NCBI GenBank assembly: GCA_964354495.1
Contig: CAYHAA010000006.1
Location: forward strand, 60,001-92,000
Source: an uncultured archaeon
GTDB lineage: Archaea > Asgardarchaeota > Thorarchaeia > Thorarchaeales > Thorarchaeaceae
Direction of reading: 5' to 3'
DNA: 32,000 nt
Below are positions 1,224 through 19,359 of the stretch, one piece after another (the stretch's first letter is position 1; each line of letters opens with the position of its first letter). A program made the position numbers and the translations under genes. The notes under the pieces are model-generated. The model was not told the origin of the DNA. It saw nothing but the letters and a program-made list of their open reading frames with translations, and did no database searches.

Positions 1224-1472
1224 TCATGCGATAGAGAAAATGGGCGGAAAGAACACAAAGTATTGAACGGTAATTGCCAAGAGTATCCCGCCCAGAACCA
1301 ATCCCTTTCCTCTCTTCGTGTTCACATCAGTAAACCAGAGAATCGCACCTATGAGTACTACGATGAATGACGAGATGTTCCCGATGAAAATCAAAAAGTC
1401 CCATATCTCTGCAAAGTAAGATGCAACCAGATTTGCAAAGTCTACAAGGGGGCTCAGAATGTAGAGAAACAT
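1224..1472 (-). CDS. 82-aa two-helix membrane protein, possibly TrbC/VirB2-like pilin
   Basis: Two hydrophobic segments flank a basic loop (IVVLIGAILWFT-DVNTKRGKG-LVLGGILLAI). GAGGA SD lies upstream of the ATG. The pilin call rests on pattern only. Confidence 0.55.
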   Translation of the reverse strand: MFLYILSPLVDFANLVASYFAEIWDFLIFIGNISSFIVVLIGAILWFTDVNTKRGKGLVLGGILLAITVQYFVFFPPIFSIA

Positions 1473-1521
1473 TAGTGCATCCTCATACAGTAGTCTACTC
1501 CTCGTTGAGGATTTAAAGTCC

Positions 1522-3348
1522 TCAAAGCACTGTTACAGACTTGGCAAGGTTACGTGGTTTATCTGGATCATATCCCTTCTTCAATGCCATATAGTAGCTG
1601 AACAACTGAAGGGGTACTACAAAGATCATTGTGGAAAACTCTGCCTCAATTTGTTCGGGAATTGTGAAGACGTGATTCGAGAGACTCGCTAATTCCTTGT
1701 CATCCTTCGAAATCACAGACACTATAGACGCACCCCTCGCCTTCATCTCCATGATGTTACCAATCATTCTGCTACGTGTTTCATCATTTGGGGCAACAAA
1801 GATTACCGGATAGTCTTCTTGTACAAGAGCAATTGGACCATGCTTTGACTCACCTGCTGAATACGCTTCGGCATGATTGTAGGCGATTTCCTTGAGTTTC
1901 AGAGCTCCTTCTTCTGCGGTTGCTATCGAAACTCCTCTGCCCAAGAATAGTAAGCTTGGTCTATCGTACATCTGACCAGCTAGTCTTCTTGCCAATTCCT
2001 CATTTCTTGAAATCGTTTCAGATACAATATCCGGTACTCTCTGCAGGAACTTACGTTTTCTTTCAATGACCGAAGCATCTACAAACCCTGTTAATTCTCC
2101 GAGACTCAATGCAAGAAGAGCCAGAGCTGCCAGCTGAACCATGAACGTCTTCGTTGCGGCCACACCTATCTCTGGTCCAGCTTGAGTCAAGATTGTGTAA
2201 TCTGCATATCGTGTTATCGAGCTACCGACAACATTTGTGATTGCAACAACTTTTGCTCCTGATTCCTTTGCATACTTTACAGCACTTATCGTGTCCGTTG
2301 TTTCCCCAGATTGGGTTATCGCTATAATACAGTCATTCTGTGTGAGTGTTCCATATACCGTATCTGGGAAATCACTTGCGAGCTCAAAGATTGGAAGTAC
2401 TCCTGCAAGGGATGCAAACATATGTCGTCCGGCCTGAGCCGCATGACCAGATGTTCCCATTGCCAACATAATCACTCTCTTAGATGAGTGGATGATTTTC
2501 GCAGCTTCTCTGATCACATCATCTCTGAGTCTGAGAGTGTTCCTTATCGCTTCAGGCTGCTCATGAATTTCTTTCAGCATGAAATGTGGATATCCGCTTT
2601 TCTCGGCCTGATCCGCGGTCCAACTTATCTTGATGCCTTCTCGTTTGACTTCACTATTGTCAGCTAATTTCTCTATCCTCACCCTGTCAGCAGTGAGACT
2701 CGCTATCTCTCCATCAAGCAGAAGAATCATATCATTTGTCATGGGTAGAAATGCCGGAATATCCGAGGAAACATACGAAGCATCCTCTTTTCGACCAATG
2801 ACTAATGGATTGCCATCCCGTGTGCAGACAATCCTACTAGTTTCTTCTTTCGTACTCATCACTACAATAGCATAGGTCCCCTCAATCCGCTTTGTTGTTT
2901 CTTTGACTGCTTGAAACAAGTTCAAGCCATCCTTCATGTAGTCCTCAATAAGATGGGGGATGACCTCTGTATCTGTTTCAGATTTCAGTTCATGTCCTTT
3001 CTCTTTCAATTCAGCTCGAAGTTTCATGAAGTTGTCAATCACACCATTATGAACGACTGAGATTTCATTGTTGCAGTCGAAGTGAGGGTGTGCGTTTAAC
3101 ATGGATGGTATTCCGTGTGTGGCCCAGCGTGTGTGTCCAATCCCTATCGATCCAGGCATGTCATCAAGATTGAGTCTTCTATGGACCTCCTCAATCTTCC
3201 CCTTTTCTTTCTTGATGTAGAGTCTTCCTGCAGATATAGTCGTTACTCCAACAGAATCATAGCCTCGGTATTCAAGTCGCTTTAGCGCTTGATGCAAGAA
3301 GGGTGCGACATCACCATGTTTCTGGACAACACCTATAATACCGCACAT
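1522..3348 (-). CDS. glmS: Glutamine--fructose-6-phosphate transaminase (isomerizing)
   Basis: N-terminal MCGIIG, RGYDS, GHTRWATHG, HNG, SQSGET, LKLKE, KHGP and C-terminal PRNLAKSVT. Confidence 0.98.
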   Translation of the reverse strand: MCGIIGVVQKHGDVAPFLHQALKRLEYRGYDSVGVTTISAGRLYIKKEKGKIEEVHRRLNLDDMPGSIGIGHTRWATHGIPSMLNAHPHFDCNNEISVVHNGVIDNFMKLRAELKEKGHELKSETDTEVIPHLIEDYMKDGLNLFQAVKETTKRIEGTYAIVVMSTKEETSRIVCTRDGNPLVIGRKEDASYVSSDIPAFLPMTNDMILLLDGEIASLTADRVRIEKLADNSEVKREGIKISWTADQAEKSGYPHFMLKEIHEQPEAIRNTLRLRDDVIREAAKIIHSSKRVIMLAMGTSGHAAQAGRHMFASLAGVLPIFELASDFPDTVYGTLTQNDCIIAITQSGETTDTISAVKYAKESGAKVVAITNVVGSSITRYADYTILTQAGPEIGVAATKTFMVQLAALALLALSLGELTGFVDASVIERKRKFLQRVPDIVSETISRNEELARRLAGQMYDRPSLLFLGRGVSIATAEEGALKLKEIAYNHAEAYSAGESKHGPIALVQEDYPVIFVAPNDETRSRMIGNIMEMKARGASIVSVISKDDKELASLSNHVFTIPEQIEAEFSTMIFVVPLQLFSYYMALKKGYDPDKPRNLAKSVTVL

Positions 3349-3431
3349 GATTAAGACTCCTCAATCAGACAATGCTTAGCTCTAGCATAATCATGCAAAA
3401 AGCGTTTGTATCCGGATAGAATCGCACTAAT

Positions 3432-3743
3432 CTATCCTGTTAACTCAATCTCGATATATACAGAGTCAGGAATTCTGACACGCATAATCTGACGAATAGC
3501 TCTTTCGTCTGCATCAATGTCGATAAGCCGCTTGTGAATTCTCATCTCCCATTTATCCCAAGACTCAGAGCCTTGGCCACAGGGTGTCTTTCGGGTTGGA
3601 ATAACCATCTTACGAGTTGGTAGTGGTATTGGACCAGCCATTCTGACACCTGTTTTTCGAGTAATTCTTCTAATCTGATTACAGACTCCATCCAGGTGTT
3701 CTGTGCTCGTACTTGACAATCGAATTCTCGCTCGTTGAGTCAT
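3432..3743 (-). CDS. rps10: 30S ribosomal protein uS10
   Basis: [35 protein letters not shown] motifs. Confidence 0.98.
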
Positions 3744-3797
3744 GTAGAAATCACACTCGGCTTTTAGAGGTGTCAGAGGCTACGGAAAGTGAATCGG

Positions 3798-3808
3798 ATA
3801 AAAAGCTT
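3798..3808 (-). promoter_or_regulatory. Putative TATA box for rps10
   Basis: Minus strand reads AAGCTTTTTAT about 55 nt upstream of the rps10 ATG. Confidence 0.45.
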
Positions 3809-3886
3809 GTCTTGTGAATGAAACATGTCAACAAGAAAGACAATGTCCATAAGCGTAATAATCACATTTCAGGAAGTGTGGTGTAA

Positions 3887-4684
3887 TTGGAGCCTCCTGT
3901 TATCGTCAAGCTCGGTGGATCTGTAATAACACACAAAGACTCCTCGCCCCCACGTGTCAACGACGAGCATCTCAGTCGAATAGCGCGCGAATTAGCAAAT
4001 CATGATAGTCCTCTTATTGTGGTTTTAGGCGGTGGAGCTCATGGTCATCAAGCTGCACATAAACATGGATTTGGCAGTCTTAAAACTCCTTCACAACAAC
4101 TGCTAGCTGGAATTCCTGATATTCACCATAACATGTCAGTCCTGGCTCTAAGAGTCGAAGAAGAGATGAACAAGCAAGGTGTGCCTGGGGTTGTCTTCTC
4201 CCCATTCACATTTGTCACTTTACGAGATAACCACATAGAGCATTTTCCTACTGCTATCATCAAAAGAACATTGAACGCCGGCTCCTGCGTAATAATCCAT
4301 GGTGATGTCTGCTTTGATCTAAACAGGTCTGCTTCTATTCTAAGTGGAGACACAATTGCTGTACATCTTGCGGAAAAACTCCTAGCAAGAGCTGTCTTCA
4401 TTGGAACAAACGTAGATGGTGTTCTTGAAGAGAACCCGATCCGAAATCCCGCAGCTCGGTGTATACCTCTCATAGACAGTTCAAACAAAAGCCAGGTATT
4501 AGCAAACATAGGTCCTTCTTCTAGTACAGATGTGACAGGTGGTATGGCAAGAAAGATCAGTGAACTTCTTCAATTGAGTGACCAAAAAGTGGAAGTAGCA
4601 ATCTTCAACCTCCTAAGGCCAGGCCGATTAACTGCGTTGTTGTCAGGAAATCCAACTATTTGTACAAGGTTACAGTTTTCTTAG
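3887..4684 (+). CDS. ipk: Isopentenyl phosphate kinase (amino acid kinase family)
   Basis: VKLGGSVIT, GGGAHGH with the IPK-signature His, HGDV, ILSGD, TNVDGV and DVTGGM. TTG start. Confidence 0.9.
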   Translation: MEPPVIVKLGGSVITHKDSSPPRVNDEHLSRIARELANHDSPLIVVLGGGAHGHQAAHKHGFGSLKTPSQQLLAGIPDIHHNMSVLALRVEEEMNKQGVPGVVFSPFTFVTLRDNHIEHFPTAIIKRTLNAGSCVIIHGDVCFDLNRSASILSGDTIAVHLAEKLLARAVFIGTNVDGVLEENPIRNPAARCIPLIDSSNKSQVLANIGPSSSTDVTGGMARKISELLQLSDQKVEVAIFNLLRPGRLTALLSGNPTICTRLQFS

Positions 4685-7600
4685 CTAACTAGGGTGGAAA
4701 CGCTATCGTCCATAGTCCTCACTACTAGATTTCCAGGTGTCACCACACTATCCTCAAGATACTCAGACGCAGTCAGAATGCATACAACTTGATTCGACTT
4801 ACAGGTTCTACATGCAACATCACTATGAAGATTCAGCAGAGTGCTGAGCTGCTGTTGATTCGGAAAGATAACATATGACGTACTACCTGCGCACAAATCA
4901 TAGTATCCATGATCGCACGACACGTCCGAATGGTGCTTCTTTAGTTCTGCCTCAATTATGCCTGTAGCTTTCTCTTTCAACTCCTGCAATACTGAGGAAT
5001 TCACAATCCAAAGGCCTTGACCCACATCGACAAACTTGCTTTCATTGTTGATACGTAATGCGGTTAGAACCTCATCAGCAAGTAACTCGGTAAGCGCTCT
5101 TCTTCCCTCCTCAGCAATCAGTGGAGCAGATCTTCCCTTGAGGGACTGAAGAGCTGTCGTTTCAATGAAATCCAAAAGCACCTCCCATCTGACTTGGCCG
5201 TTTGATAGATCAACGAAATCCTGAATGAGTCCAAACCATAACCGAATCTGAATGGCTCTGCTAGTTGCTGGACCAATCTCATGTATTGCTTCAATCAATT
5301 CAGTTTCTTCACCAGAGTCCGCAGCGACCTTGTTCCTATTATCAGAGCCCTCAACAGGAATCGCTGCCCGGCTGAAACTCTCTATCATCGAATCAAGAGA
5401 GCTTGGAAAGGCAGAAACAACGTTCACAGCATAGAATTCTTCAGAGCTGTTAAGGACTTCTCGAAGTCTGGCCGCGGCAACACTTCCCCTTACTACAACA
5501 TACATTTCACTTATTCCATTTCCAAGAATTCCCATGTGGTGTCGTATCTTTTCCAAAATCACTTCCAAGGATGATGCTCTGAGATGTTCGGGTATGATGA
5601 CCACTGCTTTATCTTCAATAACCAAATCTGGAAAATTCGTTTGAGATTCGCGTATTGCAGAATTGTCCTTCTCTATGCCCAACCTGCTAGTCACATACTC
5701 CATTATCACACGACGAATTGCCTCCAATCCTTGTCCAGGCAATGCGTATACAAAACCGCCTGAAACAAGTGACAGGGCCTCTCGGTCGATGGACCCTAGC
5801 GTAACCAGGTTTCTAATCACCTCAGAAATATCGTCTTCCATCACTGTTGAATCATGAGTTGATAGAAGGTCGTGAATCTGCTGTTCGGTGGCCATACCCG
5901 CAGAAGCAAGATAACCGATGATGTGGCTGCCAAAGCGTCCTGCCCTATCAAAGACAATGGTCTGCGCTTCAGATTCTTGAGGCTGGAGCACCGGTCTTCT
6001 TTCGGGTTCAGAGTCCTCCGTTTCGGTGATAGTACCACCTGTCTTATTCTGTGACTCTTTCTTTGGCTCCTCTGATCGCAACTCACTCGAATCATCATGT
6101 ATCACTACGGGGTATTTGTCAATAAAGGGCTCAGTAGCAATTTCAAACGTGCCTGTGTCAGGAATCGCAACCAAGGCACGTCCGCGTTTCATGGTTCTCA
6201 GATATGACTCTTGATCTTGATTTAATGATAGAAACTTACTTCCAACTTGGCTATCATATGGCAGCCTAAATACGATCTTTGTTGCTGTGTTCGCTAGAAT
6301 GTTTGATGATATATTAGGTCTGGTTGATACTACAATGACACCTTGCCCAGTCGCACGTTGCAACAAGACCATTGATTCACCTGTAGTTACATCTGCTGAA
6401 GAGTCCTTCGAATAGATTTCAGGCACAAGATTGCTGGCTTCTTCAAGAACTACAATATGATGTAGACCTGAAACAATCCCTCTCCTCATAGAGCTATCAA
6501 AGATATGCTTGGCAATCAAGTTGTACAATAGACGGGCAGATTCCATGCCTCCTGTTCTTGCTATGTGGCTTAGGTCAAGAATCACACGTTTGTCTAACAG
6601 ACTCGAGATTCTTATCGTTCTAGAACCACCACTCAGAATCTCGCCCAAAGGTTCTTGAGAGAGAATCTGAAGCCTGTTGAGGAGAGCGTCACTTGTCATT
6701 CGTCCCAAACGATCTTCTGTGGCAAGCTCAGATACTGTTTTGACCAGCCCCTGAATGGAATTGTTGCCCTCCAACGATTCTGCTAGTCTATCTATAGACT
6801 CCCTTAGCAATCTCTCCATAGCGGGAGAGAGTTCTGAAGACTCACCCTTTTCCTTTAGAAGTTCTCTAAGCATGACGAACGTTGAGTAGGCGCAGCCTTC
6901 ATCATCTCCCATATCTGAATCCATTAAACCAATCACAAATGATTTATCAAGACCCGGTTTCAGGATTATTACATCTTCTACCCGCCCAGCAAGCCCTGAG
7001 TACTCCGTTCCTTTGATATCAAATATCCACCATGGGATATTTGTTTTCTCACTGACTTGAACAATAAGATGCTTCACAAGGGTTGTCTTTCCAGTACCTG
7101 TGGCTCCGAGAATAGCAACGTGCTCTCTCAACCACTCTGTTTTTAGTCCAGCTTTTGAGAAGGGTCGTCCTTCAAAGACAGTGTTTCCAATCTCGAGTTC
7201 GTTGCTCATAGATTCCCGCGGAGGAACTTGAAACACAGGGAGAACATTTGGACTGATAGCTGGAAGTTTTCTGATTGGAGTATTAATGAATGAAACCAGC
7301 CTGCTTACATGCATTTTCTGTTTCTTGATATGTTTCCTTGTGAGTAGTCTAACTACAGTTCTTTTCGGTAATCGCTGAGGTGAAAGGCTGATGGCATTGT
7401 TTCCGCCCCAGATAGACAATATTAGTCCACTCAAGCCATCTTGGGCGATGGCGATATCTTCCAACGACTTGCATTTGATAAGGAAATATACTGATGAATC
7501 AAACCATCCGACATTGTCTTGTATCTCTTCATACTCTGTGATGAGTTTCTTCTTCTCTGCGTAATCCTTCAATGACTCCTCTTTTCGTTTCTCCTTTGAT

Positions 7601-8481
7601 TGTATTGTTTTCCATTTTCCTTCAAGCTTCTGCTTTTCCTTGCCAGGTTTGCAAGTAGAAAAGACACAGGTCACACTGGCCGAGTAGTTCTGTTTCAATA
7701 GTGTTGATAGGAAAGTACCAATTTGAGATGATTCCAGTGATGGTTTCACTCCAGGAGTACCTTTCAATACCATCAATGACGTCGCTTTCATACTTTCCCT
7801 TGTTATCTCACTTCTTTCTGAGTCGAATCCGTCTGCAAACGAACCAACTGCATCTTGAAGTTCATCTTCTTCAAGCAATTTGATCTCCACTAGATTGAAT
7901 GATGCCAGTAGAATCGCCTCGACTCTTGTTGCCTCTCTCCTCAGGATTTCTCTGACAACATCAACTTCTTGATCTGTTGCTGTAATGTAGATTCGAAGAA
8001 ATGGGTCGCTTCTTGATACTCCTGCCTCGAACGCCATACTCACAGACTGCGTCATCCCCGCACGCATCGCTAGCAGCATAGATGTATTGTATTTTGGATG
8101 CCCACTCTCATCAGAAAAGACCGAGCCTGATACTGAAACGATCTCTAGACAACATACCCCCGTTGTCTGTTTTTCAGAGCCAAACAGCATGATTTCTTTC
8201 TCTATCGATACTGCAAAGTCTTCGTGTTCCATCTGATGCTTACTGAGAGCAATTCCACTCACGGCAGGTATTAAACAGATCAACCATTCTATGGCTGTCT
8301 TATACGGAATAACTGGGGGACTAAACATCTTATAGAGTGGCAGAATATAGATGAGAAGAAGATACAGGATTGCAGCCGCTATCCCAGCAAGCCAGACCCT
8401 ATGTAACCATAGCAGCAAATTGAGGTTACTTTGCTCTAGAGTACCTGTTTCTGACCGCTTGAATGGCAATCTGAATGACAT
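4681..8481 (-). CDS. Membrane-anchored HerA/VirB4/FtsK-like (DUF87) ATPase with C-terminal wHTH and degenerate nuclease-like region
   Basis: Two N-terminal hydrophobic helices, Walker A HVAILGATGTGKTT, IFDIKGTEY, VILDLS, Walker B IVVLEEASN, ILANTATKIVFRL and MKRGRALV. An HTH-like segment and PDLVIEDK follow the ATPase. GAGGGA SD upstream. Confidence 0.8.
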   Translation of the reverse strand: MSFRLPFKRSETGTLEQSNLNLLLWLHRVWLAGIAAAILYLLLIYILPLYKMFSPPVIPYKTAIEWLICLIPAVSGIALSKHQMEHEDFAVSIEKEIMLFGSEKQTTGVCCLEIVSVSGSVFSDESGHPKYNTSMLLAMRAGMTQSVSMAFEAGVSRSDPFLRIYITATDQEVDVVREILRREATRVEAILLASFNLVEIKLLEEDELQDAVGSFADGFDSERSEITRESMKATSLMVLKGTPGVKPSLESSQIGTFLSTLLKQNYSASVTCVFSTCKPGKEKQKLEGKWKTIQSKEKRKEESLKDYAEKKKLITEYEEIQDNVGWFDSSVYFLIKCKSLEDIAIAQDGLSGLILSIWGGNNAISLSPQRLPKRTVVRLLTRKHIKKQKMHVSRLVSFINTPIRKLPAISPNVLPVFQVPPRESMSNELEIGNTVFEGRPFSKAGLKTEWLREHVAILGATGTGKTTLVKHLIVQVSEKTNIPWWIFDIKGTEYSGLAGRVEDVIILKPGLDKSFVIGLMDSDMGDDEGCAYSTFVMLRELLKEKGESSELSPAMERLLRESIDRLAESLEGNNSIQGLVKTVSELATEDRLGRMTSDALLNRLQILSQEPLGEILSGGSRTIRISSLLDKRVILDLSHIARTGGMESARLLYNLIAKHIFDSSMRRGIVSGLHHIVVLEEASNLVPEIYSKDSSADVTTGESMVLLQRATGQGVIVVSTRPNISSNILANTATKIVFRLPYDSQVGSKFLSLNQDQESYLRTMKRGRALVAIPDTGTFEIATEPFIDKYPVVIHDDSSELRSEEPKKESQNKTGGTITETEDSEPERRPVLQPQESEAQTIVFDRAGRFGSHIIGYLASAGMATEQQIHDLLSTHDSTVMEDDISEVIRNLVTLGSIDREALSLVSGGFVYALPGQGLEAIRRVIMEYVTSRLGIEKDNSAIRESQTNFPDLVIEDKAVVIIPEHLRASSLEVILEKIRHHMGILGNGISEMYVVVRGSVAAARLREVLNSSEEFYAVNVVSAFPSSLDSMIESFSRAAIPVEGSDNRNKVAADSGEETELIEAIHEIGPATSRAIQIRLWFGLIQDFVDLSNGQVRWEVLLDFIETTALQSLKGRSAPLIAEEGRRALTELLADEVLTALRINNESKFVDVGQGLWIVNSSVLQELKEKATGIIEAELKKHHSDVSCDHGYYDLCAGSTSYVIFPNQQQLSTLLNLHSDVACRTCKSNQVVCILTASEYLEDSVVTPGNLVVRTMDDSVSTLVS

Positions 8482-11449: not shown

Positions 11450-13153
11450 CTAGTGTGATTTACTAGGTTCACGACATGCGAATCTCAAAGGATGTCCATA
11501 TGACCACATTTCTTCGCCTAGTTTTCCAAAATCCATCTTGTCCCCGTTATTCCTTACTGTGTCTATCAATATTGTGATAGGTTTTTGAGAATCCTTGATT
11601 CCAAGGCTTCTAGCAAGAGTCTGAAACGCACCGTCGGGTGCCCAATGAATGGTAGTGGGACTAGTGACGTCATACAAGACATTTGTTCCTAGATAGGTCA
11701 CCAGACCATCGTGAATTCCTCTGCGTATCTCAACGATTTCTTTGATGCGACGTAATGACTCACCGGGTTTAGGTCTTTCCAGCGTAACAACCAAATCCAT
11801 CATTCCAAGGTTAGATCTATCAATTCCATGTCCATGAATCCATCTGGAAATCAAATTAGAAGCTGAATCACTATGGCATGTCTGAATGGACCGAAGGCCT
11901 GCTGCAATAGCCTGAAACAAGGCTTTACTGTGTTCAGCTGTCTGAATCTCTCCGAGAATCAGATAGTCTGGCGATCGATGAAGACATTTCACGATTTCTT
12001 CACTCTTGTTCAGCTTCTTATGCTGTTCATCTACAGAATCCACCTGTAATCTGACTTGATGATGATTTGATGAGGGCCTACTTTCAATCGCATCTTCTAT
12101 GTAGATCTTCCTCCACCACTGGGGTGTAGTCATATCTAGCGCATTCAGGAGGGTAGTCTTTCCTGTGCCTGGTCCTCCTGTAATGGTTATGTTGAGCCTG
12201 CAAGCAACTGCTAGTAGCAGTATAGCTGCTGCCTCATGTGTGATTGTATGGTTTTCTATCAGATTCTGAATTGAGTATGGCTCTCTGCGAGCACGACGAA
12301 TTTCAAGGTACAGACCATTCGTGCAGAGAGGAGGTACACTAGCTGACAGACGAAGTATTGTACTCAAAAGGTCAAGCTCCATCTTTAGAGACGGATTACT
12401 TCGATCTAGGTGTAAATTACTCTCTGCCCTGATAAACGTGATAATTCGCGGCACCTCATCCATGCAGAAGGTAATTGATGTGGCGCATCTGCCATATTTC
12501 TGATGATCAAAATAGGCGACAGTGTCAGGTCCATCAAGATACACTTCTTCAGTCAATTCATCCAGCAGAATCGGAATGAGAGGTCCGAGTATGTGCGTTT
12601 GGTGTGCAACAATCTGTGAGAGCCTTATTCGTGTATTTTCATTGATTTCAGGAATATGTTCCTGAATGTATTCCGAAATCTTGTTCATCATTCGTTTCTG
12701 TTGTTCTGTTAATTGTTCTCTTGTTCCCAAGGGAGAACTTGCACTGTTCTTGAACTCCTTTATGAGCCTATTCAGCAGAGAAAATTCCAATGATGTCCTC
12801 ACAATCGGTCGATATGCGCACTTGACATGAGAGTTTCCATATTCTCCCATGAAAAAACAAAGGTATGGCCCAACACAATAGAAATCGATGAGATTCCCTA
12901 TTTCACAGAATAGTTCATCATTGTTACCAATATATACTGAATCCCATCCTTCAGAATACCATGGAGGTTCAGTCCTCAAAAGCTCTCCTGTGAACCGAAG
13001 ATGCAACAACCCACGATTCGCCTCTGCAAGAACGATAGGTTCCTCTGATTCCTTGGGCAGAGCACAGAGCTTCTGGCATATTGATTCAACTCCATCAGGG
13101 CAGTTACTACATCTATCCGATGAACAGTGAATGACCTTGACACTCTCTTTCAT
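11450..13153 (-). CDS. Type II/IV secretion system ATPase (TadA/CpaF/VirB11/FlaI-like)
   Basis: LRLSASVPP, IRR, Walker A ITGGPGTGKTTLLNAL, Asp-box IEDAIE, LHRSPDYLILGEI and His-box QTCHSDS. Confidence 0.9.
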   Translation of the reverse strand: MKESVKVIHCSSDRCSNCPDGVESICQKLCALPKESEEPIVLAEANRGLLHLRFTGELLRTEPPWYSEGWDSVYIGNNDELFCEIGNLIDFYCVGPYLCFFMGEYGNSHVKCAYRPIVRTSLEFSLLNRLIKEFKNSASSPLGTREQLTEQQKRMMNKISEYIQEHIPEINENTRIRLSQIVAHQTHILGPLIPILLDELTEEVYLDGPDTVAYFDHQKYGRCATSITFCMDEVPRIITFIRAESNLHLDRSNPSLKMELDLLSTILRLSASVPPLCTNGLYLEIRRARREPYSIQNLIENHTITHEAAAILLLAVACRLNITITGGPGTGKTTLLNALDMTTPQWWRKIYIEDAIESRPSSNHHQVRLQVDSVDEQHKKLNKSEEIVKCLHRSPDYLILGEIQTAEHSKALFQAIAAGLRSIQTCHSDSASNLISRWIHGHGIDRSNLGMMDLVVTLERPKPGESLRRIKEIVEIRRGIHDGLVTYLGTNVLYDVTSPTTIHWAPDGAFQTLARSLGIKDSQKPITILIDTVRNNGDKMDFGKLGEEMWSYGHPLRFACREPSKSH

Positions 13154-13213: not shown

Positions 13214-14257
13214 TCACTCCACAATTTCGTTGGGAAGTTCAATGATTTTCTTCATCATTCCGAAGTGATCCCTAATACTGTACTCTGCCACTTCTGTAGC
13301 TGTTGAAGTCAGTTTTTGAGTCAGAACGGGGCTTCTTCCATTCTGATAGGCAATCAAACGATCGCTTGCATAAGCTACTGACACTGTGAATATGAATGGA
13401 TTACGTCCTCCGCGTTTTGAGGATGGTATCATGTCCAAAGTCATCACAATTCTTTCTCTGAGTGCATTTTCATAGGATTTGAGGTCCCATCCACGGGACT
13501 TAACCTTGCTCGATACTCGTGCGTTGTTCATCAGCATTGAGAGCACTCGTGGAACATAGTCTTTCGGTTTTCGGATTTCCGGAGCATACCCTGTCACTGA
13601 CTTGAGTCTGAGGGCTTCCCGTACCATAGCTCTAACATTAACACGGTGCCCACATTTTTCAAACACATCAGCTATCTCGTTGAGTGTTATAGGAGCTTCA
13701 TCCCTGAACTCTCTCACAGCCATGAGAAGGCATACTGCAATAAGCAGGATATTGTTGCCCACACAGTCTGCAGTTTCTGATGTTACTTTCTTGTAGAGAT
13801 ATGCTGTACGATCCCGCACCTGCTCATTTAGCATCAACAATTTAGACACATGATTGAGAGTTCTAAGAGCTCGATATTTTGCTTCATTCTTTCCAATTCT
13901 GACTCTGGTACTATAAATTGTCTTAAGTCGTTTGAATTTCCTTTGTGCACGAGCAGATAGGGCTTGGCCGTGCGCATCTTGAAAGTACTTATCCTTATGA
14001 AATCCTATGTAACTTCCAAGTCCATCCACGATATGAATCCGATTTCCTAATGACACATACACACTAGCATCGGGAGTGTCACCAAATCGCTCTTCACCCA
14101 TCTGGTATGTTGGCAGGACATACTCTCTTGTGATGACCAAACCACATTCAGCACATACTATATGCCCTCGACTAGTAATCAAGAAACCGTTACAGTCAGG
14201 ACATGTTAACGATGATATTGAATGAGTTTCATACGTTCCATCAGTCAAAAACCACAC
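13214..14257 (-). CDS. tfb: Divergent transcription initiation factor IIB (TFB) paralog
   Basis: Zn ribbon CPDC-x13-CAEC and two cyclin repeats (PITLNEIA, GRNP, TQK..EYSIRD). The true start may be the TTG at 14248. Confidence 0.85.
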   Translation of the reverse strand: MWFLTDGTYETHSISSLTCPDCNGFLITSRGHIVCAECGLVITREYVLPTYQMGEERFGDTPDASVYVSLGNRIHIVDGLGSYIGFHKDKYFQDAHGQALSARAQRKFKRLKTIYSTRVRIGKNEAKYRALRTLNHVSKLLMLNEQVRDRTAYLYKKVTSETADCVGNNILLIAVCLLMAVREFRDEAPITLNEIADVFEKCGHRVNVRAMVREALRLKSVTGYAPEIRKPKDYVPRVLSMLMNNARVSSKVKSRGWDLKSYENALRERIVMTLDMIPSSKRGGRNPFIFTVSVAYASDRLIAYQNGRSPVLTQKLTSTATEVAEYSIRDHFGMMKKIIELPNEIVE

Positions 14258-14409: not shown

Positions 14410-14422
14410 CCGATAAAACGAG

Positions 14423-14788
14423 TCATTTTAGTGTCATGTAGAACTTCTCAGAATCAAAGGTGCTACTTTGGCTGGGTGTAGACTTCACTAGATTCAAAAC
14501 TAGCCGCAAACCACCAACAGATCCAACAACTTCCAGACCCTCTTTGCCAGATTTCTTGAACAGGTTACCTTCAACATAGAGCTTTGATGACTCACCTGCT
14601 GAGATAGGCTTTGAGTCGATTGTAACACCAACCGTGTCCCCAACAGCCAATGCTCCACAGAGTGCCTCAGGTAATTCAAGTGTAAGAGTGACCCCCTCGG
14701 TCTTTGATGATATCTTGAGTATCTTCAGTCTTCTGGTTTCTGTTTCTTCTATTGAATCAATACTTGTGTCCTTGAATTTGATTACCAT
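14423..14788 (-). CDS. rpo8: DNA-directed RNA polymerase subunit Rpo8 (RpoG, RPB8 homolog)
   Basis: LTLELP..GDTVGVTIDS and YVEGNLFK...SVGGLRLVL resemble the RPB8 motifs LxLDI..DxxxxxI and YVMxGKVY...SFGGLLMxL. 121 aa. Confidence 0.75.
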   Translation of the reverse strand: MVIKFKDTSIDSIEETETRRLKILKISSKTEGVTLTLELPEALCGALAVGDTVGVTIDSKPISAGESSKLYVEGNLFKKSGKEGLEVVGSVGGLRLVLNLVKSTPSQSSTFDSEKFYMTLK

Positions 14789-14911
14789 GAGAACTATCTC
14801 CGAGTCATTTGGGGCTTAGATTCAAGGCTGGTTCGTTTTCGAATTAAACCTGTCGTTGTTTCCCTGTGCTCTTTTTTAGGCGATATAAAGACAGTTTCTT
14901 GGTGCTGGAAA

Positions 14912-16852
14912 TTGCAGAGAAGAACCCTAGCAGTAGTAATCCTCTCTCTATTAGTTGTTTCTGGCTTGCCGATACGAGTTATGGCATTCTATTTTGATTT
15001 TCAGTATTTTGAAACTGACAAAATGGTTTACGAGGTTGGTGAAACCATTGAAATGGCTGCTGGGCTGATTGCGGACTTCAGTCCTGAGGGATGGTGTTAT
15101 ATTTCGTTTGCCGTTGTCACAGATTTGGGCCCGGCATTTGCAGATGAGTACTTCATTCCTCCTTCGCCCAATGCGCGACTAGTGAACTCCTCCTATACTA
15201 TCCTACCCCAACATACTGACACTGGGGAGAATGGAATAGTTGCTCATGTGCTATTCAATGTCGAAGTGTTCGATACTGTATCACAGGGCGCCGGAGATAG
15301 TATTGAGGTGAGCATCACTAGAGGCCACCTCACAGTCCTGCCCGTATCCTCACTGACCATACAGTCCGGCACGAATATGACACTATGTCTTGGGATCGTA
15401 TCCATCCATGATGACAACATACGATACTCCAATGAATCCATCAATATTCGCGTTGAGGATTCTAGCTCTGTGACCATTTTGAATGATACCATTTCAACGA
15501 CGCTGGATGGTACTTTCAGTTTCAACTGGAGTAGTTCAATGGGGCCTCCAGGCGTCTACAATCTGACGGTCACTGGCTTTGGTAATAACGATTTTCTTGC
15601 GTTTTCAGAATCCTTACCGATATCCGTGACTCCTGCAGAATCAACTCTCTTCCTTCTTTCGGCGCCCGAGTCTATTCAATGCCAGTTTCCTGATGGAAGC
15701 CATTTTGAGAATGCGGAAATCCTTGTCAGGCATGAAACAGCAAATCAAACAGGGATTGACGATAGCACGGTCTATTGGAACAGCAGTTTTGGAAGTGGTG
15801 AATTAACAAGCGTCGGTAATGGTACATATACAGTATTCATTCCATTTCGAACACAATCAGGATTGTACGTAATCAACATTACAGCTATTAATCAGAAATA
15901 CCAAGCAGCCAGCAAGGCAATCTCCATCGAAGCTATCAAGAATACACTCCAATTCTATCCGTTTCAAAGCACATGGTCAGTTGAACATGGCGATACCCTA
16001 TTCATTCAGTTCTCAATCGAGGAGGAATTCGACTGGGGCAACGAAATTGTCGTAGACTTCCTAGACGATCTTGATGAGATATCTCTGTCCATGAACGTGA
16101 CTCCAGACTCGGTCAATTTGCTCCTAATGACTTGTTGGTCTAATCTATCAATTGGTATTCATATGGTTCATCCACACATCAGTAATGGCTACTATGCTTT
16201 CTCAAATGACACATCATCATTCCAACTTATCATCCTTGGAGAGTTCAGAGTCAACATAACTGTGTTATCTGCTTACTACGGTGAAACCATTGACCTAGGT
16301 CTTTCTGTTCTTGATACCAATAACAATACGATAGAGCTAGTATCAGTTTTAGTCTATTATGGCACTGATCCCAGTCCCTTTGCCACAACTGGGCAAATCA
16401 ACTCAACCGAAATGATATCAATAGAACTGCCCCTCTGGATAACACCTGGTATCCACTCTCTACGTCTGGAACTCCTGATTCCCTATCATGTATCTGTGTC
16501 TGAGCAAGTGAATGCTTCAGTCTGGATGAGGACTAATATGACAATCAGAGTTGAAACGATCTCAGACTGGAACCATTCAGCACATACCAGCTGCATTCTG
16601 ATTCTGACAGATTATGATTGGAGCATTTTTTCAAGCAACTCACTAGGTTCAATCATTCGCCCTCCGCCTATCTTGTTCAGTGGAATGACATCGATTGAAT
16701 TCCTTACTGTACGCGAAACCTCTCTTGATAACTGCCCCAAATTCAACTCAGGAACCAGTATTCTATCGACAGACTTACTGAATCCACTTACAGCTTCATC
16801 TGGAAAAGGCCAGACTGTTCTCAATCGCATGGATCTCACACTTGTTCCATGA
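14912..16852 (+). CDS. Secreted Ig-like repeat surface glycoprotein; last ~80 codons overlap the opposite-strand gene
   Basis: Signal peptide, beta-rich repeats (PGxYNLTV, PGIHSL), about 19 N-x-S/T sequons by hand count, and no C-terminal TM helix. Confidence 0.75.
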   Translation: MQRRTLAVVILSLLVVSGLPIRVMAFYFDFQYFETDKMVYEVGETIEMAAGLIADFSPEGWCYISFAVVTDLGPAFADEYFIPPSPNARLVNSSYTILPQHTDTGENGIVAHVLFNVEVFDTVSQGAGDSIEVSITRGHLTVLPVSSLTIQSGTNMTLCLGIVSIHDDNIRYSNESINIRVEDSSSVTILNDTISTTLDGTFSFNWSSSMGPPGVYNLTVTGFGNNDFLAFSESLPISVTPAESTLFLLSAPESIQCQFPDGSHFENAEILVRHETANQTGIDDSTVYWNSSFGSGELTSVGNGTYTVFIPFRTQSGLYVINITAINQKYQAASKAISIEAIKNTLQFYPFQSTWSVEHGDTLFIQFSIEEEFDWGNEIVVDFLDDLDEISLSMNVTPDSVNLLLMTCWSNLSIGIHMVHPHISNGYYAFSNDTSSFQLIILGEFRVNITVLSAYYGETIDLGLSVLDTNNNTIELVSVLVYYGTDPSPFATTGQINSTEMISIELPLWITPGIHSLRLELLIPYHVSVSEQVNASVWMRTNMTIRVETISDWNHSAHTSCILILTDYDWSIFSSNSLGSIIRPPPILFSGMTSIEFLTVRETSLDNCPKFNSGTSILSTDLLNPLTASSGKGQTVLNRMDLTLVP

Positions 16853-17775: not shown

Positions 17776-17830
17776 ATATCCGAAATAAGCATATTCTTAG
17801 GGCATTCCCGGAGTTCTTTTCCCGATACTC

Positions 17831-17837
17831 TTTTATC
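17831..17837 (+). promoter_or_regulatory. Putative TATA box for tRNA-Gly
   Basis: TTTTATC about 26 nt upstream of the tRNA 5' end. Confidence 0.5.
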
Positions 17838-17862
17838 AACGCTGGCTTCGATGATTTGTGCT

Positions 17863-17937
17863 GCGACCGTTGTCTAGTGGCTATGATGCAGGCTTCCCAA
17901 GCCTGCGACCCGGGTTCGAATCCCGGCGGTCGCACCA
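17863..17937 (+). tRNA. tRNA-Gly(CCC), intronless, CCA encoded
   Basis: GCGACCG/CGGTCGC acceptor, CAGGC-TTCCCAA-GCCTG anticodon arm, CCGGG-TTCGAAT-CCCGG T arm. Confidence 0.97.
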
Positions 17938-18110
17938 CTCTTTCGATTTCGTCAGGTTTATCGGCAAATCGGTCATAATCCAATTGGCGAGTGATGATTG
18001 CCATGACCCCGATGAGTCAGAAATGACAATGATATGGATCTTGAGTTAGGAGCTCGCTATTACTTTCGGAAATCTCCCCTCGCAATGTTCTTTTAATCGT
18101 ATAGTCTGCA

Positions 18111-18122
18111 AATGCTTTTAAG
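18111..18122 (+). promoter_or_regulatory. Putative BRE/TATA for cdc6
   Basis: AATGCTTTTAAG about 33 nt upstream of the ATG. Confidence 0.5.
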
Positions 18123-18153
18123 GACACTACAATAGAGTGGTCTTTGGACTGCC

Positions 18154-19359
18154 ATGGCTCATGATTATGTCGAAGACGAATTGAGCAGACGTAGTGTTTT
18201 CAAGTCTGAGCAATTTCTATCAATAGACTACGTACCTGAGAGTCTTCCGCATCGCCAAACCGAGCTTCGAACACTTGCTCAGAACTTTACAACTCTAATT
18301 CGTTCGCCAGGAAGAACAAGTCATAAATTCATTATTGAAGGGCCTGTGGGAAGTGGAAAGACTGCAGTAGCCAAGAGATTTGCTGAACAAATGGTGCAGG
18401 CCGCAGAACGAAGAGAGATCAATCTTCATAATATACACATTAATTGCCGCGTCAACAAGACCGACTATCTTGTGTTTCTACGGGCTCTTCGTGAATTCAA
18501 ACCCGAATTTCCTCGTCGAGGTCACTCCCCTGAGGAGTTACTGCAGATGTTGATTGAAGTCCTTGATGAAGAAGATAGATATCTTCTGCTCATTCTTGAT
18601 GAACTTGACTACTTCATCAGACAAAGAGGCGCTGACATTCTATACGATCTAACACGACTCACTGATGATAGGCTAAATGCAAAACAGCGTGTTTCTATCC
18701 TAGCGATAGGACGCAGAATTCCCTTTGATGAAGACACGCTCGATCCAAGTACACTCAGCACGCTTCAACGCAATATCATACACTTTTCCAAATACAGCAG
18801 AGATGCTTTGTATGATATTCTCAGGAACCGAGTCGAAATGGCATTTGAAAAGAACGCTGTGATGGATGAGACTCTTCATGTCATCTCAGACATTGCAGCA
18901 GAGCGAGGCGATGCCAGATATGCCATCGAGCTTTTGTGGCGAGCAGGAAAACAAGCTGACAGTAACCAAGCAAGCCTAGTCATTCCAGATTACGCTCGTC
19001 AAGCAAAGGCTGATACTCATCCCGAACTACGGAAGGAAATATTCAGTACCCTTACACCTCAACACAAGCTGCTTCTCTTAGCAACTGCTCGCCAACTGAA
19101 GGAAACCCGTAGCGCTTACGTAACCATTGGGGAGGTTGAGGAGATGTATCGTGCAGCATGCGAAGAATATAGAAGAGAACCAAGAGCACACACCCAAATC
19201 TGGGAATGGGTTCAAGATCTCAATGCTCATGGAATAATAGACACAAAGCGATCGGGAAGTGGACAGAGAGGGCAGACAACGCTCATTGGTCTCTCTGATG
19301 TTCCTGCAGAAATGTTGGAACAGTTTATAGCTCATCTTCTCGATACAAAGGAGCTGTGA
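18154..19359 (+). CDS. cdc6: Orc1/Cdc6 family protein (Orc1-2-like C-terminal signature)
   Basis: DYVPESLPHR, Walker A GPVGSGKT, INC, Walker B LILDELD, GDARYAI and wHTH EPRAHTQ...SGSGQRGQTT. Confidence 0.96.
   Translation: MAHDYVEDELSRRSVFKSEQFLSIDYVPESLPHRQTELRTLAQNFTTLIRSPGRTSHKFIIEGPVGSGKTAVAKRFAEQMVQAAERREINLHNIHINCRVNKTDYLVFLRALREFKPEFPRRGHSPEELLQMLIEVLDEEDRYLLLILDELDYFIRQRGADILYDLTRLTDDRLNAKQRVSILAIGRRIPFDEDTLDPSTLSTLQRNIIHFSKYSRDALYDILRNRVEMAFEKNAVMDETLHVISDIAAERGDARYAIELLWRAGKQADSNQASLVIPDYARQAKADTHPELRKEIFSTLTPQHKLLLLATARQLKETRSAYVTIGEVEEMYRAACEEYRREPRAHTQIWEWVQDLNAHGIIDTKRSGSGQRGQTTLIGLSDVPAEMLEQFIAHLLDTKEL

What the first reader, a model, noticed from the sequence alone, without database searches (positions are those of the whole stretch)
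1224..19359. Possible chromosomal pilus plus DNA-exchange module with its own regulators (Orc1-2/TFB/ups/ced-like circuit)
Within about 18 kb, interleaved with core genes, lie a VirB2-like protein, a TM-anchored HerA/VirB4-like ATPase, a Flp-like pilin and a TadA/VirB11-like ATPase, all four on the minus strand. A divergent TFB sits directly upstream of the pilus ATPase, with two Ig-like glycoproteins and an Orc1-2-type Cdc6 nearby. In Sulfolobales, Orc1-2 and TFB3 induce Ups pili and the Ced DNA importer (VirB2-like CedA1 plus HerA/VirB4-like CedB) after DNA damage. No integrase, relaxase or att sites are visible, so this looks domesticated rather than mobile. Inference: an analogous aggregation/DNA-import system in a probable Asgard lineage. 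No TadC-type platform or CedA/VirB6 channel is present in the window.
Basis: inference. Interest (0 to 1): 0.72.

Follow-up and report, generated by a model that had tools for sequence, protein, structure and literature searches.

The report
Asgard pilus plus VirB4-like ATPase module
A Thorarchaeota (Asgard) chromosome carries, scattered among housekeeping genes, the parts of an old two-motor surface machine (a thin Flp-type pilus system and a membrane-anchored VirB4/CedD-like ATPase with a small VirB2-like protein, a private transcription factor B and an Orc1-2-type Cdc6); it is a plausible but untested cell-contact and DNA-exchange apparatus in close relatives of eukaryotes.

Summary
The reading is partly supported.

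The pilus part is a Tad/Flp-type type IV filament system. It has a CpaF/TadA-like ATPase and a Flp-like prepilin (G|GPLVEE). A fused TadB-TadC platform and an A24 peptidase lie elsewhere in the genome.

The 1266-aa ATPase has a VirB4-specific N-domain (Z 20.6 to TrwK). Its motor is closest in sequence to CedD, the DNA-import ATPase of Sulfolobus.

Synteny within Thorarchaeota is uninformative, because the whole 20-kb block is collinear. Other lineages decide the question:
- In Baldrarchaeota the 82-aa protein sits directly before the ATPase.
- In Borr/Sifarchaeia it sits beside the TFB paralog.
- In Thermoprotei and Bathyarchaeia one co-oriented cluster reads (Rpo8 in Thermoprotei)-TFB-like-pilins-ATPase-TadB-TadC-Flp-CedD-like ATPase.

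Not shown:
- any filament
- a DNA substrate
- damage induction
- a CedA/VirB6 channel

The TFB is full-length, unlike TFB3.

This scan has found the same module before in other Thorarchaeota genomes. I found no paper describing it.

The parts
1224..1472 (-). 82-aa protein: an N-terminal amphipathic stretch, then two TM helices joined by a basic loop (TDVNTKRGKG). Candidate VirB2/CedA1-like subunit ('tm82').
   Evidence: Translation. It is 67-96% identical across Thorarchaeota. The family was found in 93 of 201 Asgard genomes. It lies immediately upstream of the ATPase homolog, on the same strand, in all 4 Baldrarchaeota-type genomes. It lies next to the TFB paralog in Borr/Sifarchaeia. The nearest named Atlas clusters are all T4SS-pilin types, at 0.82-0.86, which counts as a lead only.
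4681..8481 (-). 1266-aa membrane-anchored VirB4/CedD-like ATPase. It has 2 TM helices, a VirB4-type N-domain (about residues 85-415), a HerA/FtsK-class motor (about 420-790), an acidic linker and a tail of about 420 aa with wHTH-like features.
   Evidence: DUF87 at 47 bits. NCBIfam CedD at 49-52 bits, and CedD matched in 33 of 37 family members with best E 1e-27. AF2 pLDDT is 82.8 for residues 85-800 and 85.7 for the N-domain alone. The N-domain matches TrwK/VirB4 at Z 20.6 over 299 aa, with the next match at 10.8. The motor matches the VirB4 C-terminal domain at Z 29.6, TrwB at 28.4, HerA at 26.3 and FtsK at 18. For the tail, Atlas gives HTH-type leads only.
8787..10748 (+). 653-aa surface protein with a Sec-type signal peptide, Ig-like domains, 11 sequons and a C-terminal TM anchor. 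It is divergent from the ATPase gene.
   Evidence: Big_3_5 at 41.4 bits, above the cut-off. Sequons. A homologous or analogous anchored protein lies next to the ATPase homolog in family f2 (L042) and family f12 (L050). It is present in 44 of 48 Thor-type loci.
10977..11183 (-). 68-aa Flp-like prepilin. The motif is EQG|GPLVEESLLLGLAVV, with Gly at -1, Glu at +5 and then a hydrophobic helix.
   Evidence: ORF and translation. The family is found beside the ATPase in most Asgard and TACK loci. Members read KGSPLVEEGLL or AGSLLEYGLL, the second being the classical Flp G/xxxxEY motif.
11450..13153 (-). 567-aa CpaF/TadA-class type IV filament ATPase with a Cys-rich N-terminal stretch (C-x5-C-x2-C...C...C).
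   Evidence: PF00437 at 69 bits. Best solved relatives are A. fulgidus GspE2 (E 5e-25), CpaF (E 1e-21) and FlaI (E 2e-15). It is 53-88% identical across Thorarchaeota. Relatives were found in 186 of 201 Asgard genomes.
13214..14257 (-). 347-aa divergent TFB paralog with a Zn ribbon and a cyclin region. It lies 60 bp upstream of the ATPase.
   Evidence: TFIIB repeat at 23.1 bits and Zn ribbon at 21.8 bits, both just under cut-off. NCBIfam TFIIB at 56 bits against a cut-off of 384. The genome's other TFB-like genes are only 24-26% identical. Orthologs (28-42% identity, E as low as 1e-98) lie beside or near the ATPase in 13 of 16 Asgard loci and in 23 of 32 non-Thor named loci.
14423..14788 (-). 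121-aa RNA polymerase subunit Rpo8 (RpoG/Rpb8), upstream of the TFB paralog. It is a core gene that travels with the module.
   Evidence: A profile of 7 homologs hits S. pombe Rpb8 at E 2.3e-8 and Sulfolobus RpoG at E 3e-3. Atlas scores 0.94 to RpbG clusters. It is single-copy in the genome. It lies next to the TFB paralog in Thermoprotei, Methanomethylicia, Nezhaarchaeales and Nitrososphaerota loci, and a weaker candidate does so in Odin.
14912..16852 (+). 646-aa secreted, sequon-rich protein (19 N-X-S/T). Ig-like folds are only weakly indicated. Its 3' end overlaps POR alpha on the other strand.
   Evidence: Translation. Only weak Ig-type Pfam hits, E 0.1-0.3. Sequons. It is less conserved than the rest: 559-921 aa in relatives, and not called in L005.
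18154..19359 (+). 401-aa Orc1/Cdc6 of the non-Orc1-1 (Orc1-2-type) paralog group.
   Evidence: Its best solved relative is the P. aerophilum Cdc6 1fnn (195 bits), against 154 bits for Sso Orc1-1. The genome's other paralog (C6:118493-119626) scores 329 and 325 bits to Ape ORC1 and Sso Orc1-1. Thermoproteales kept only Orc1-2 (PMC3914693). Every Cdc6 found near the pilus genes in other Asgard groups is of the window's type.
19367..19651 (+). 94-aa ArsR-type winged-helix regulator, always paired with the Orc1-2-type Cdc6.
   Evidence: HTH_5 at 32.9 bits. The Cdc6-ArsR pair is found within about 8 kb of the pilus ATPase in Odin, Baldr, Borr and several unnamed Asgard families.

Best explanation
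The window holds a dispersed copy of an ancient chromosomal two-motor surface apparatus shared by Asgard and TACK archaea.

Motor 1 is a Tad/Flp-type type IV filament machine. The CpaF/TadA-like ATPase would work with a fused TadB-TadC platform (C5:147188-148714) and an A24 prepilin peptidase (C3:24072-24596). Together they would process the 68-aa Flp-like prepilin and polymerise it into a thin pilus.

Motor 2 is a membrane-anchored VirB4/CedD-like ATPase. It would work with the 82-aa VirB2-like protein. Anchored Ig-like glycoproteins probably act as adhesins.

A private TFB paralog next to rpo8, and an Orc1-2-type Cdc6 with an ArsR partner, are the candidate regulators.

The most likely job is pilus-mediated cell contact coupled to transfer of a macromolecule, most plausibly DNA, as in Ups plus Ced/Ted of Thermoproteota.

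Shown here: gene identities, folds, motifs, and recurrent linkage across lineages.

Inferred: that a filament forms, that the two motors cooperate, that the substrate is DNA, the direction of transfer, and the regulation.
For: **Identities**
- T2SSE ATPase with CpaF-like solved relatives.
- Flp motif with Gly at -1 and Glu at +5, conserved family-wide.
- The 508-aa platform has a T2SSF hit. Its two halves match the two membrane proteins that follow the ATPase in other lineages, with E down to 5e-24 and 3e-15.
- A24 peptidase.

**The large ATPase**
- The N-domain folded alone matches only the VirB4 N-domain strongly: Z 20.6 against a next-best of 10.8. Foldseek's top 14 hits are all TrwK.
- CedD is the nearest curated family in 33 of 37 members.
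- CedD is needed for DNA import in Sulfolobus (PMC11823120).
- CedB and CedD are structural VirB4 homologs (PMC11868833).

**Linkage outside Thorarchaeota**
- tm82 lies directly upstream of the ATPase in 4 of 4 Baldr-type genomes. It lies 4.5 kb away in family f12, and 3-8 kb from the pilus ATPase in Borr/Sif.
- In Borrarchaeum, tm82, TFB, TadC, TadB, the ATPase, a 976-aa anchored protein, Cdc6, ArsR, the VirB4-like ATPase and Flp all lie within 16 kb.
- One metagenomic contig has ATPase-TadB-TadC-Flp-DUF87 in a row.
- In Thermoprotei and Bathyarchaeia a co-oriented run reads T2SSE-TadB-TadC-Flp followed by a 2-TM ATPase. That ATPase scores 190-254 bits to CedD.

**Regulators**
- The TFB paralog is near the ATPase in 13 of 16 and in 23 of 32 loci.
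- The Orc1-2-type Cdc6 with ArsR is nearby in several Asgard families.

**Not mobile**
- G+C is even and there are no mobility genes.
- The block is collinear across Thorarchaeota down to 54% ATPase identity.
Against: - No score reaches a curated cut-off: CedD 52 against 600, CedB 20 against 700, VirB4 20 against 643.
- No CedA/VirB6-like channel, VirB3 or VirB8 was found, either next to the homologs or by BLAST in the genome.
- tm82 has no family hit, and its pilin likeness rests on a sub-0.9 feature score.
- The genome has at least seven paralogous DUF87/CedD-like ATPases. The TACK operon ATPases pick the window's gene as best hit in only 3 of 5 tests, by small margins, and only the motor aligns.
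- In Thorarchaeota the platform is unlinked, and the module genes are separated by housekeeping genes.
- A crude k-mer scan found no shared upstream motif.
- The Rpo8-TFB-ATPase link could instead point to a transcription-related role, as proposed for subclade 4D.
Confidence: 0.5

Rival explanations
1. There are two unrelated systems. A Flp-type adhesion pilus and a separate VirB4/HerA-like ATPase of other function (secretion, membrane remodelling or chromosome handling) lie near each other only because this information-processing region is syntenically frozen.
For: The whole block, core genes included, is collinear in Thorarchaeota. In many Asgard genomes the two ATPases are 40-270 kb apart or on different contigs. 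Many DUF87 paralogs exist.
Against: Linkage recurs in different gene orders in Baldr, Borr/Sif, family f12, one JGI contig, Thermoprotei and Bathyarchaeia, and includes direct operon-like adjacency.
Confidence: 0.2
2. This is a conjugative-type or adhesive filament machine that carries no nucleic acid. The VirB4-like ATPase extracts and polymerises tm82, or exports proteins, for attachment, syntrophic contact or nanotube-like links.
For: VirB4 powers pilus biogenesis in T4SS (established knowledge of T4SS). The Ig-like anchored glycoproteins point to adhesion. No relaxase, channel or DNA-processing gene is linked.
Against: The nearest characterised sequence family, CedD, is a DNA-import component. 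The C-terminal tail has wHTH-like features, which is a lead only.
Confidence: 0.15
3. This is a repurposed 'subclade 4D'-type system with no filament. The pilus-type ATPase, the TFB paralog and Rpo8 act in a transcription-related pathway, for example by membrane sequestration or release of the TFB.
For: The Rpo8-TFB-ATPase order matches the Thermoproteus/Pyrobaculum 4D loci, and the ATPase has a Cys-rich N-terminus. The platform is unlinked in Thorarchaeota.
Against: A conserved Flp-type prepilin, TadB/TadC homologs and an A24 peptidase are all kept. The compact TACK loci also carry 4-5 pilin-like genes.
Confidence: 0.1
4. This is a decayed remnant of an integrated conjugative element.
For: VirB4-like and VirB2-like genes are typical of such elements.
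Against: There is no integrase, relaxase or att site, and G+C is even. The ATPase domain is 64-95% conserved and gene order is fixed across Thorarchaeota. Relatives occur in 156 of 201 Asgard genomes.
Confidence: 0.03

Closest known systems
Ced (Sulfolobales) and Ted (Thermoproteales) T4SS-like DNA-import systems: CedA/E, CedA1/A2 or TedC, CedB, CedD, TedB
   Same: A membrane-anchored VirB4-type ATPase whose motor is nearest to CedD. A small two-helix membrane protein as candidate pilin. Chromosomal and not mobile. Accompanied in the cell by a type IV pilus system. An Orc1-2-type Cdc6 and an extra TFB lie nearby.
   Different: Scores are far below the family cut-offs. One ATPase carries a complete VirB4-like N-domain, where Ced splits it between CedB and CedD. 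It has a 420-aa C-terminal extension. No CedA/VirB6 channel was found. There is no functional evidence.
Tad/Flp pilus (CpaF/TadA, TadB, TadC, Flp, TadV) and archaeal Epd-like type IV filaments
   Same: A CpaF-like ATPase, TadB and TadC homologs, a short Flp-type prepilin with the G/xxxxE(Y) motif, and an A24 peptidase.
   Different: The platform is fused and unlinked in Thorarchaeota. The ATPase has a Cys-rich N-terminal region. A TFB paralog and rpo8 are tied to the locus. A VirB4/CedD-like ATPase is attached.
Archaeal T4P 'subclade/subsystem 4D' of Pyrobaculum-Thermoproteus (Makarova, Koonin, Albers 2016, PMC4858521; PMC13705601)
   Same: A pilus-type ATPase with a small Cys-rich N-terminal domain, a TFIIB homolog in the same gene string, and the RPB8/Rpo8 gene adjacent.
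   Different: 4D is described as having no pilins and a 4-5-TM partner. Here a Flp-like prepilin is present, the TadBC platform lies elsewhere, and a second ATPase belongs to the set. Direct sequence kinship to arCOG05558 and arCOG05559 was not tested.
Ups pili with the TFB3 and Orc1-2 DNA-damage circuit of Sulfolobales
   Same: By analogy only: a type IV pilus, a DNA-import ATPase family, an extra TFB and an Orc1-2-type protein.
   Different: The pilus genes are Tad/Flp-like. The TFB paralog is full-length, whereas TFB3 is truncated (own knowledge of TFB3). Neither damage induction nor a binding motif has been shown.
VirB4/TrwK of bacterial conjugative T4SS (PDB 7o41-7o43, 8rtb, 8rtd)
   Same: The two-domain fold: N-domain Z 20.6, and motor Z 29.6 to the T. 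pseudethanolicus VirB4 C-terminal domain.
   Different: 10-12% identity. It has its own TM anchor. No VirB3, VirB6, VirB8 or VirB10 partners were found. TIGR00929 scores 17-20 bits against a cut-off of 643.

Membership tests
Tad/Flp-type type IV filament system | Secretion ATPase of the T2SSE/CpaF class | tested here: met
   PF00437 at 69.4 bits against a cut-off of 24.9. CpaF solved structures at E 1e-21.
Tad/Flp-type type IV filament system | TadB/TadC (T2SSF) platform protein | tested here: met
   The platform is not in the window. There is one T2SSF locus in the genome, at C5: 28.8 bits in the six-frame search and 24.6 bits on the ORF, against a cut-off of 25.2. Its two halves match the two ATPase-adjacent membrane proteins of other lineages, with E down to 5e-24 and 3e-15.
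Tad/Flp-type type IV filament system | Short prepilin with a G/xxxxE(Y) class III signal and a hydrophobic helix | tested here: met
   The window protein reads G|GPLVEES. Relatives read G|SPLVEEG and G|SLLEYG. No Pfam Flp hit.
Tad/Flp-type type IV filament system | A24 prepilin peptidase in the genome | tested here: met
   PF01478 at 41.3 and 39.6 bits, at C3:24072-24596.
Tad/Flp-type type IV filament system | An assembled filament | not testable with these tools
   Needs microscopy or proteomics.
VirB4 family | VirB4-specific N-terminal domain fold | tested here: met
   Residues 85-415 folded alone (pLDDT 85.7) match TrwK residues 15-410 at Z 20.6, over 299 aligned residues at rmsd 4.8. The next entry is at 10.8. 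Foldseek's top 14 are all TrwK.
VirB4 family | HerA/FtsK-class motor most like the VirB4 C-terminal domain | tested here: inconclusive
   VirB4 C-terminal domain at Z 29.6, tied with DndH-C at 30.4 and TrwB at 28.4. HerA is at 26.3.
VirB4 family | Sequence model TIGR00929 above cut-off | tested here: not met
   17-20 bits against 643.
Ced system | CedD equivalog (NF053655, cut-off 600) | tested here: not met
   49-52 bits for the window protein. CedD is the best family match in 33 of 37 relatives, with best E 1e-27. The TACK operon ATPases score 190-254 bits. This makes it a homolog, not an equivalog.
Ced system | CedB equivalog (NF041017, cut-off 700) | tested here: not met
   19-20 bits.
Ced system | Polytopic channel CedA/CedE (VirB6-like) | tested here: inconclusive
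   None in the window. Polytopic neighbours of homologs in other lineages have no BLAST match in this genome. No structure-based search was done.
Ced system | CedA1/TedC-type (VirB2-like) pilin | tested here: inconclusive
   tm82 has the two-helix and basic-loop layout. Its nearest named Atlas clusters are TrbC/T4SS_pilin types at 0.82-0.86. It has no HMM hit. It was not folded.
Ced system | Induction by DNA damage and a role in DNA import | not testable with these tools
   Needs experiments.
T4P subclade 4D (Makarova 2016) | ATPase with a small Cys-rich N-terminal domain, plus a TFIIB homolog and RPB8 in the gene string | tested here: met
   Cys motif. TFB paralog 60 bp upstream. Rpo8 165 bp further upstream. 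Description of the family.
T4P subclade 4D (Makarova 2016) | No pilin, and a 4-5-TM partner as the only other component | tested here: not met
   A Flp-like prepilin follows the ATPase. The platform is an 8-TM fusion elsewhere in the genome.
T4P subclade 4D (Makarova 2016) | Sequence kinship to arCOG05558 and arCOG05559 | not tested
   No Pyrobaculum or Thermoproteus sequences were to hand. Related loci in uncultured Thermoprotei were found.
Orc1-2 cluster of Orc1/Cdc6 | Groups with Orc1-2 rather than Orc1-1 | tested here: inconclusive
   By score only. The window protein's best match is the P. aerophilum Cdc6 (195 bits), ahead of Sso Orc1-1 (154) and Ape ORC2 (98). The other paralog is clearly Orc1-1, at 329 bits. 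No tree was built.
TFB3-type factor | Truncated TFB lacking the C-terminal cyclin/DNA-binding part (own knowledge) | tested here: not met
   The paralog is 347 aa, with a Zn ribbon and a TFIIB region that aligns over residues 16-251.

The most novel reading that the evidence does not exclude
A regulated, chromosomally encoded system for cell aggregation and DNA exchange predates the TACK-Asgard split and is retained in nearly all Asgard lineages. It would consist of a Flp-type pilus, a VirB4/CedD-type importer with a VirB2-like subunit, its own TFB paralog and an Orc1-2-type regulator. If so, the archaeal ancestors of eukaryotes already had a species-level DNA-sharing (proto-sexual) apparatus homologous to Ups/Ced.
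Probability: 0.25. Interest if true: 0.85.

Novelty: new variant of a known kind. Interest (0 to 1): 0.68.

Why it matters
Horizontal DNA exchange between cells is well documented in Sulfolobales but unknown in Asgard archaea, the closest relatives of eukaryotes.

A recent census states that Asgard type IV filament genes are scattered and hard to assign (PMC13705601). Here they resolve into one recurrent module with a VirB4/CedD-type ATPase. Compact operon versions exist in uncultured Thermoprotei and Bathyarchaeia, and these tie a pilus machine directly to the CedD family.

This gives concrete genes to test in the new Asgard cultures and in tractable TACK species. The tests could address cell contact, DNA transfer, and control by a dedicated TFB and an Orc1-2-type protein.

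Tried and rejected
- **Complex prediction.** Complex prediction of tm82 with residues 1-415 of the ATPase gave no answer: score 0.00 against a mark of 0.32. This is no evidence either way.
- **Upstream motif.** A scan for 6-8-mers shared by the upstream regions of eight module genes found nothing at the thresholds used. This is a crude test.
- **RNA evidence.** One sediment metatranscriptome (contigs only) has near-identical short contigs on the VirB4-like gene, the pilus ATPase, the TFB paralog, the 646-aa gene and Cdc6. There were none on tm82. Contigs from an RNA library cannot prove transcription or rank genes, so I use this neither way.
- **Channel search.** Candidate polytopic neighbours of homologs in other lineages had no match in this genome. 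NF041016, tried as a guess for CedA, turned out to be ArnR.
- **Other T2SSE hits in the genome.** C6:5889 is an ABC/ECF ATPase. C6:25048-26319 is a stand-alone 423-aa T2SSE-like protein with no platform beside it.
- **My first reading of the Cdc6 as Orc1-1-like** (note). Dropped once the second paralog was scored.
- **The 121-aa ORF as the 'pilin'.** Rejected: it is Rpo8.
- **Within-Thorarchaeota synteny as evidence of function.** Rejected: the whole block, core genes included, is collinear.
- **Orthology of the TACK CedD-like ATPases with the window gene by reciprocal best hit.** Unresolved: 3 of 5, with narrow margins.

Full report
**What is in the window.** The window is G000:C6:60001-92000, from a 3.3-Mb genome in 51 contigs that is 97.7% complete. 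Homolog names place it in Thorarchaeota.

ORF listing and Pfam give this order:
- class-V aminotransferase
- 82-aa 2-TM protein (1224-1472, -)
- GlmS, ribosomal protein S10, isopentenyl phosphate kinase
- 1266-aa TM plus DUF87 ATPase (4681-8481, -)
- 653-aa Ig-like anchored protein (+)
- tRNA-Glu
- 68-aa Flp-like ORF (10977-11183, -)
- T2SSE ATPase (11450-13153, -)
- divergent TFB (13214-14257, -)
- 121-aa ORF (14423-14788, -)
- 646-aa secreted protein (+)
- POR alpha, tRNA-Gly
- Orc1/Cdc6 (18154-19359, +)
- ArsR, TruA, RFC large and small subunits, GINS, MCM, Hel308

So every element of the finding exists where stated. G+C is even, and no integrase or relaxase family appears.

**The 121-aa gene is Rpo8.** Pfam gives only a weak RpbG hit (E 0.14). 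A profile of seven homologs hits S. pombe Rpb8 at E 2.3e-8 and Sulfolobus RpoG at about 3e-3. The Atlas feature search gives RpbG clusters at 0.94. It is single-copy. The minus-strand string is therefore Rpo8, TFB paralog, ATPase, Flp-like gene. That is the order Makarova, Koonin and Albers described for the odd 'subclade 4D' of Thermoproteales: an ATPase with a Cys-rich N-terminus, a TFIIB homolog and RPB8.

**The pilus part.** The ATPase is of the CpaF/TadA/FlaI class. It is 53-88% identical across Thorarchaeota. Relatives occur in 186 of 201 sampled Asgard genomes.

In other Asgard lineages the ATPase is followed by two membrane proteins and a 60-80-aa protein. The Odin copy of the first membrane protein hits T2SSF.

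The small proteins form one family with the window's 68-aa ORF. They carry G|SPLVEEG or G|SLLEYG motifs, which is the Flp-type G/xxxxE(Y) signal.

This genome has one T2SSF protein, a 508-aa 8-TM fusion on contig C5. Its two halves match those two neighbours, with E down to 5e-24 and 3e-15. It also has one A24 peptidase, on C3. The machine is therefore complete genome-wide, but the platform is unlinked.

**The large ATPase.**
- By sequence it is a remote HerA/FtsK-superfamily member whose best curated match is CedD. The window protein scores 49-52 bits. CedD is matched in 33 of 37 relatives, with best E 1e-27. All scores are far below the cut-offs.
- AF2 models are confident (pLDDT 82.8 and 85.7).
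- The motor matches DndH-C, the VirB4 C-terminal domain and TrwB at Z 28-30, HerA at 26 and FtsK at 18.
- The decisive feature is the N-domain. Folded alone and compared with 48,161 PDB representatives, it matches TrwK/VirB4 residues 15-410 at Z 20.6 (299 aa, rmsd 4.8), with the next entry at 10.8. Foldseek's first 14 hits are all TrwK.
- CedD is required for DNA import in S. acidocaldarius (PMC11823120).
- CedB and CedD are structural VirB4 homologs (PMC11868833).
- The 420-aa tail gives only wHTH-type leads.

**Is the grouping meaningful?** Within Thorarchaeota it cannot be judged, because the whole 20-kb block, housekeeping genes included, is collinear down to 54% ATPase identity. Outside Thorarchaeota the same families recur in different orders:

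1. The TFB paralog is beside or near the pilus ATPase in 13 of 16 Asgard loci, and in 23 of 32 named non-Thor loci.
2. The 82-aa family occurs in 93 of 201 Asgard genomes.
   - It lies directly upstream of the ATPase homolog, on the same strand, in all four genomes of family f15 (Baldrarchaeota by record title).
   - It lies about 4.5 kb from the ATPase homolog in family f12.
   - It lies 3-8 kb from the pilus ATPase, next to the TFB paralog, in Borr/Sifarchaeia.
3. In Borrarchaeum weybense all of the parts lie within 16 kb, with the Flp gene next to the VirB4-like gene.
4. A JGI contig has ATPase-TadB-TadC-Flp-DUF87 in a row.
5. An anchored Ig-like protein sits beside the ATPase homolog in two further families.
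6. In uncultured Thermoprotei a co-oriented cluster reads Rpo8, TFB-like, four or five pilin-like genes, T2SSE, TadB, TadC, Flp, then a 2-TM ATPase of 620-734 aa. Bathyarchaeia loci have the same string without a detectable Rpo8, and a Methanomethylicia locus has it with a shorter 442-aa ATPase lacking the TM helices (77 bits to CedD). The Thermoprotei and Bathyarchaeia ATPases score 190-254 bits to CedD.

This pattern is what a functional link predicts. It also bridges the window's ATPase to an experimentally characterised family.

Caveats on this point:
- Only the motors align between the TACK and Thor proteins.
- The genome has several DUF87 paralogs.
- Reciprocal best hits are only 3 of 5.

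**Regulators.** The TFB paralog is full-length and only 24-26% identical to the genome's other TFB-like genes.

The Cdc6 is not the Orc1-1 ortholog. That role falls to C6:118493-119626, which scores 329 and 325 bits to Ape ORC1 and Sso Orc1-1. The window protein is closest to the P. aerophilum Cdc6 at 195 bits. That protein belongs to an order that kept only Orc1-2 (PMC3914693).

All Cdc6 genes near the pilus genes in other Asgard groups are of the window's type and are paired with ArsR.

In Sulfolobales, Orc1-2 drives the ups, ced and tfb3 response (PMC6061795). Here that parallel is only an analogy.

**What is missing or negative.**
- No CedA/VirB6-like channel was found.
- No family cut-off was met.
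- No shared upstream motif was found.
- The complex prediction gave no answer.
- RNA-library contigs touch several module genes but prove nothing.

**Literature and earlier notes.** Two censuses of archaeal type IV filaments do not mention a HerA/VirB4/CedD-type ATPase in such loci, and they call Asgard systems scattered. The Ced/Ted papers do not treat Asgard archaea. A further search found no description.

This scan has flagged the same module in several other Thorarchaeota genomes. I re-tested their main claims here: the VirB4 fold, CedD likeness, the 4D resemblance and the TACK distribution.

**Verdict.** This is a real, ancient, vertically inherited module that joins a Flp-type pilus machine to a VirB4/CedD-type ATPase. 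Cell contact with DNA exchange is the best-supported function, but it is unproven.

Noticed in passing
L115:2697-13074, L122:2934-13453, L116:4208-13294, L136:2286-8095: Uncultured Thermoprotei and Bathyarchaeia carry a compact, co-oriented cluster: (Rpo8 in the Thermoprotei loci)-TFB-like-pilin-like genes-T2SSE-TadB-TadC-Flp, followed by a 2-TM ATPase that scores 190-254 bits to CedD. The papers I read do not describe a pilus operon ending in a CedD-family ATPase.
   Followed up: partly
G000 contigs C10:28087, C16:69062, C3:38732 and 127848, C15:63547, C18:7838, C6:101975: The genome has 13 DUF87 hits, including at least six further large (800-1100 aa) HerA/CedD-like ATPases. It also has three copies of the 82-aa family (one at C15:37153-37392, beside a SufS/SelD-like fusion gene). 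The contexts of these paralogs were not examined.
   Followed up: no
window 10761-10836: ARAGORN calls a tRNA-Glu(CUC), but Rfam matches it only partially (31 bits, model positions 9-63).
   Followed up: no
window 16612-16852: The 646-aa secreted-protein ORF overlaps the 3' end of the POR alpha gene by 240 bp on the opposite strand. Its length varies from 559 to 921 aa among relatives, and it was not called in one relative, so its true 3' end is uncertain.
   Followed up: no
window 17378-17561: Contigs from three public runs skip or replace about 180 bp inside the POR alpha gene relative to the window. This is probably a divergent segment between strains.
   Followed up: no
P0285, P0290, P0349: Among the closest non-archaeal relatives of the pilus ATPase are giant bacterial 'CpaF family' proteins of 1150-1600 aa, with two or three tandem ATPase units (Anaerolineae, Riflebacteria).
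   Followed up: no
window 11450-13153 and L025:8001-9587: Precomputed Pfam lists PF27713 (UCP018868) on the Thor and Borr pilus ATPases. This family is newer than the Pfam copy available here. I could not find out what it covers.
   Followed up: no
G000:C6:25048-26319 (L039:7048-8319): A second, 423-aa T2SSE-like ATPase (36.6 bits) stands alone, with no platform or pilin gene beside it.
   Followed up: partly
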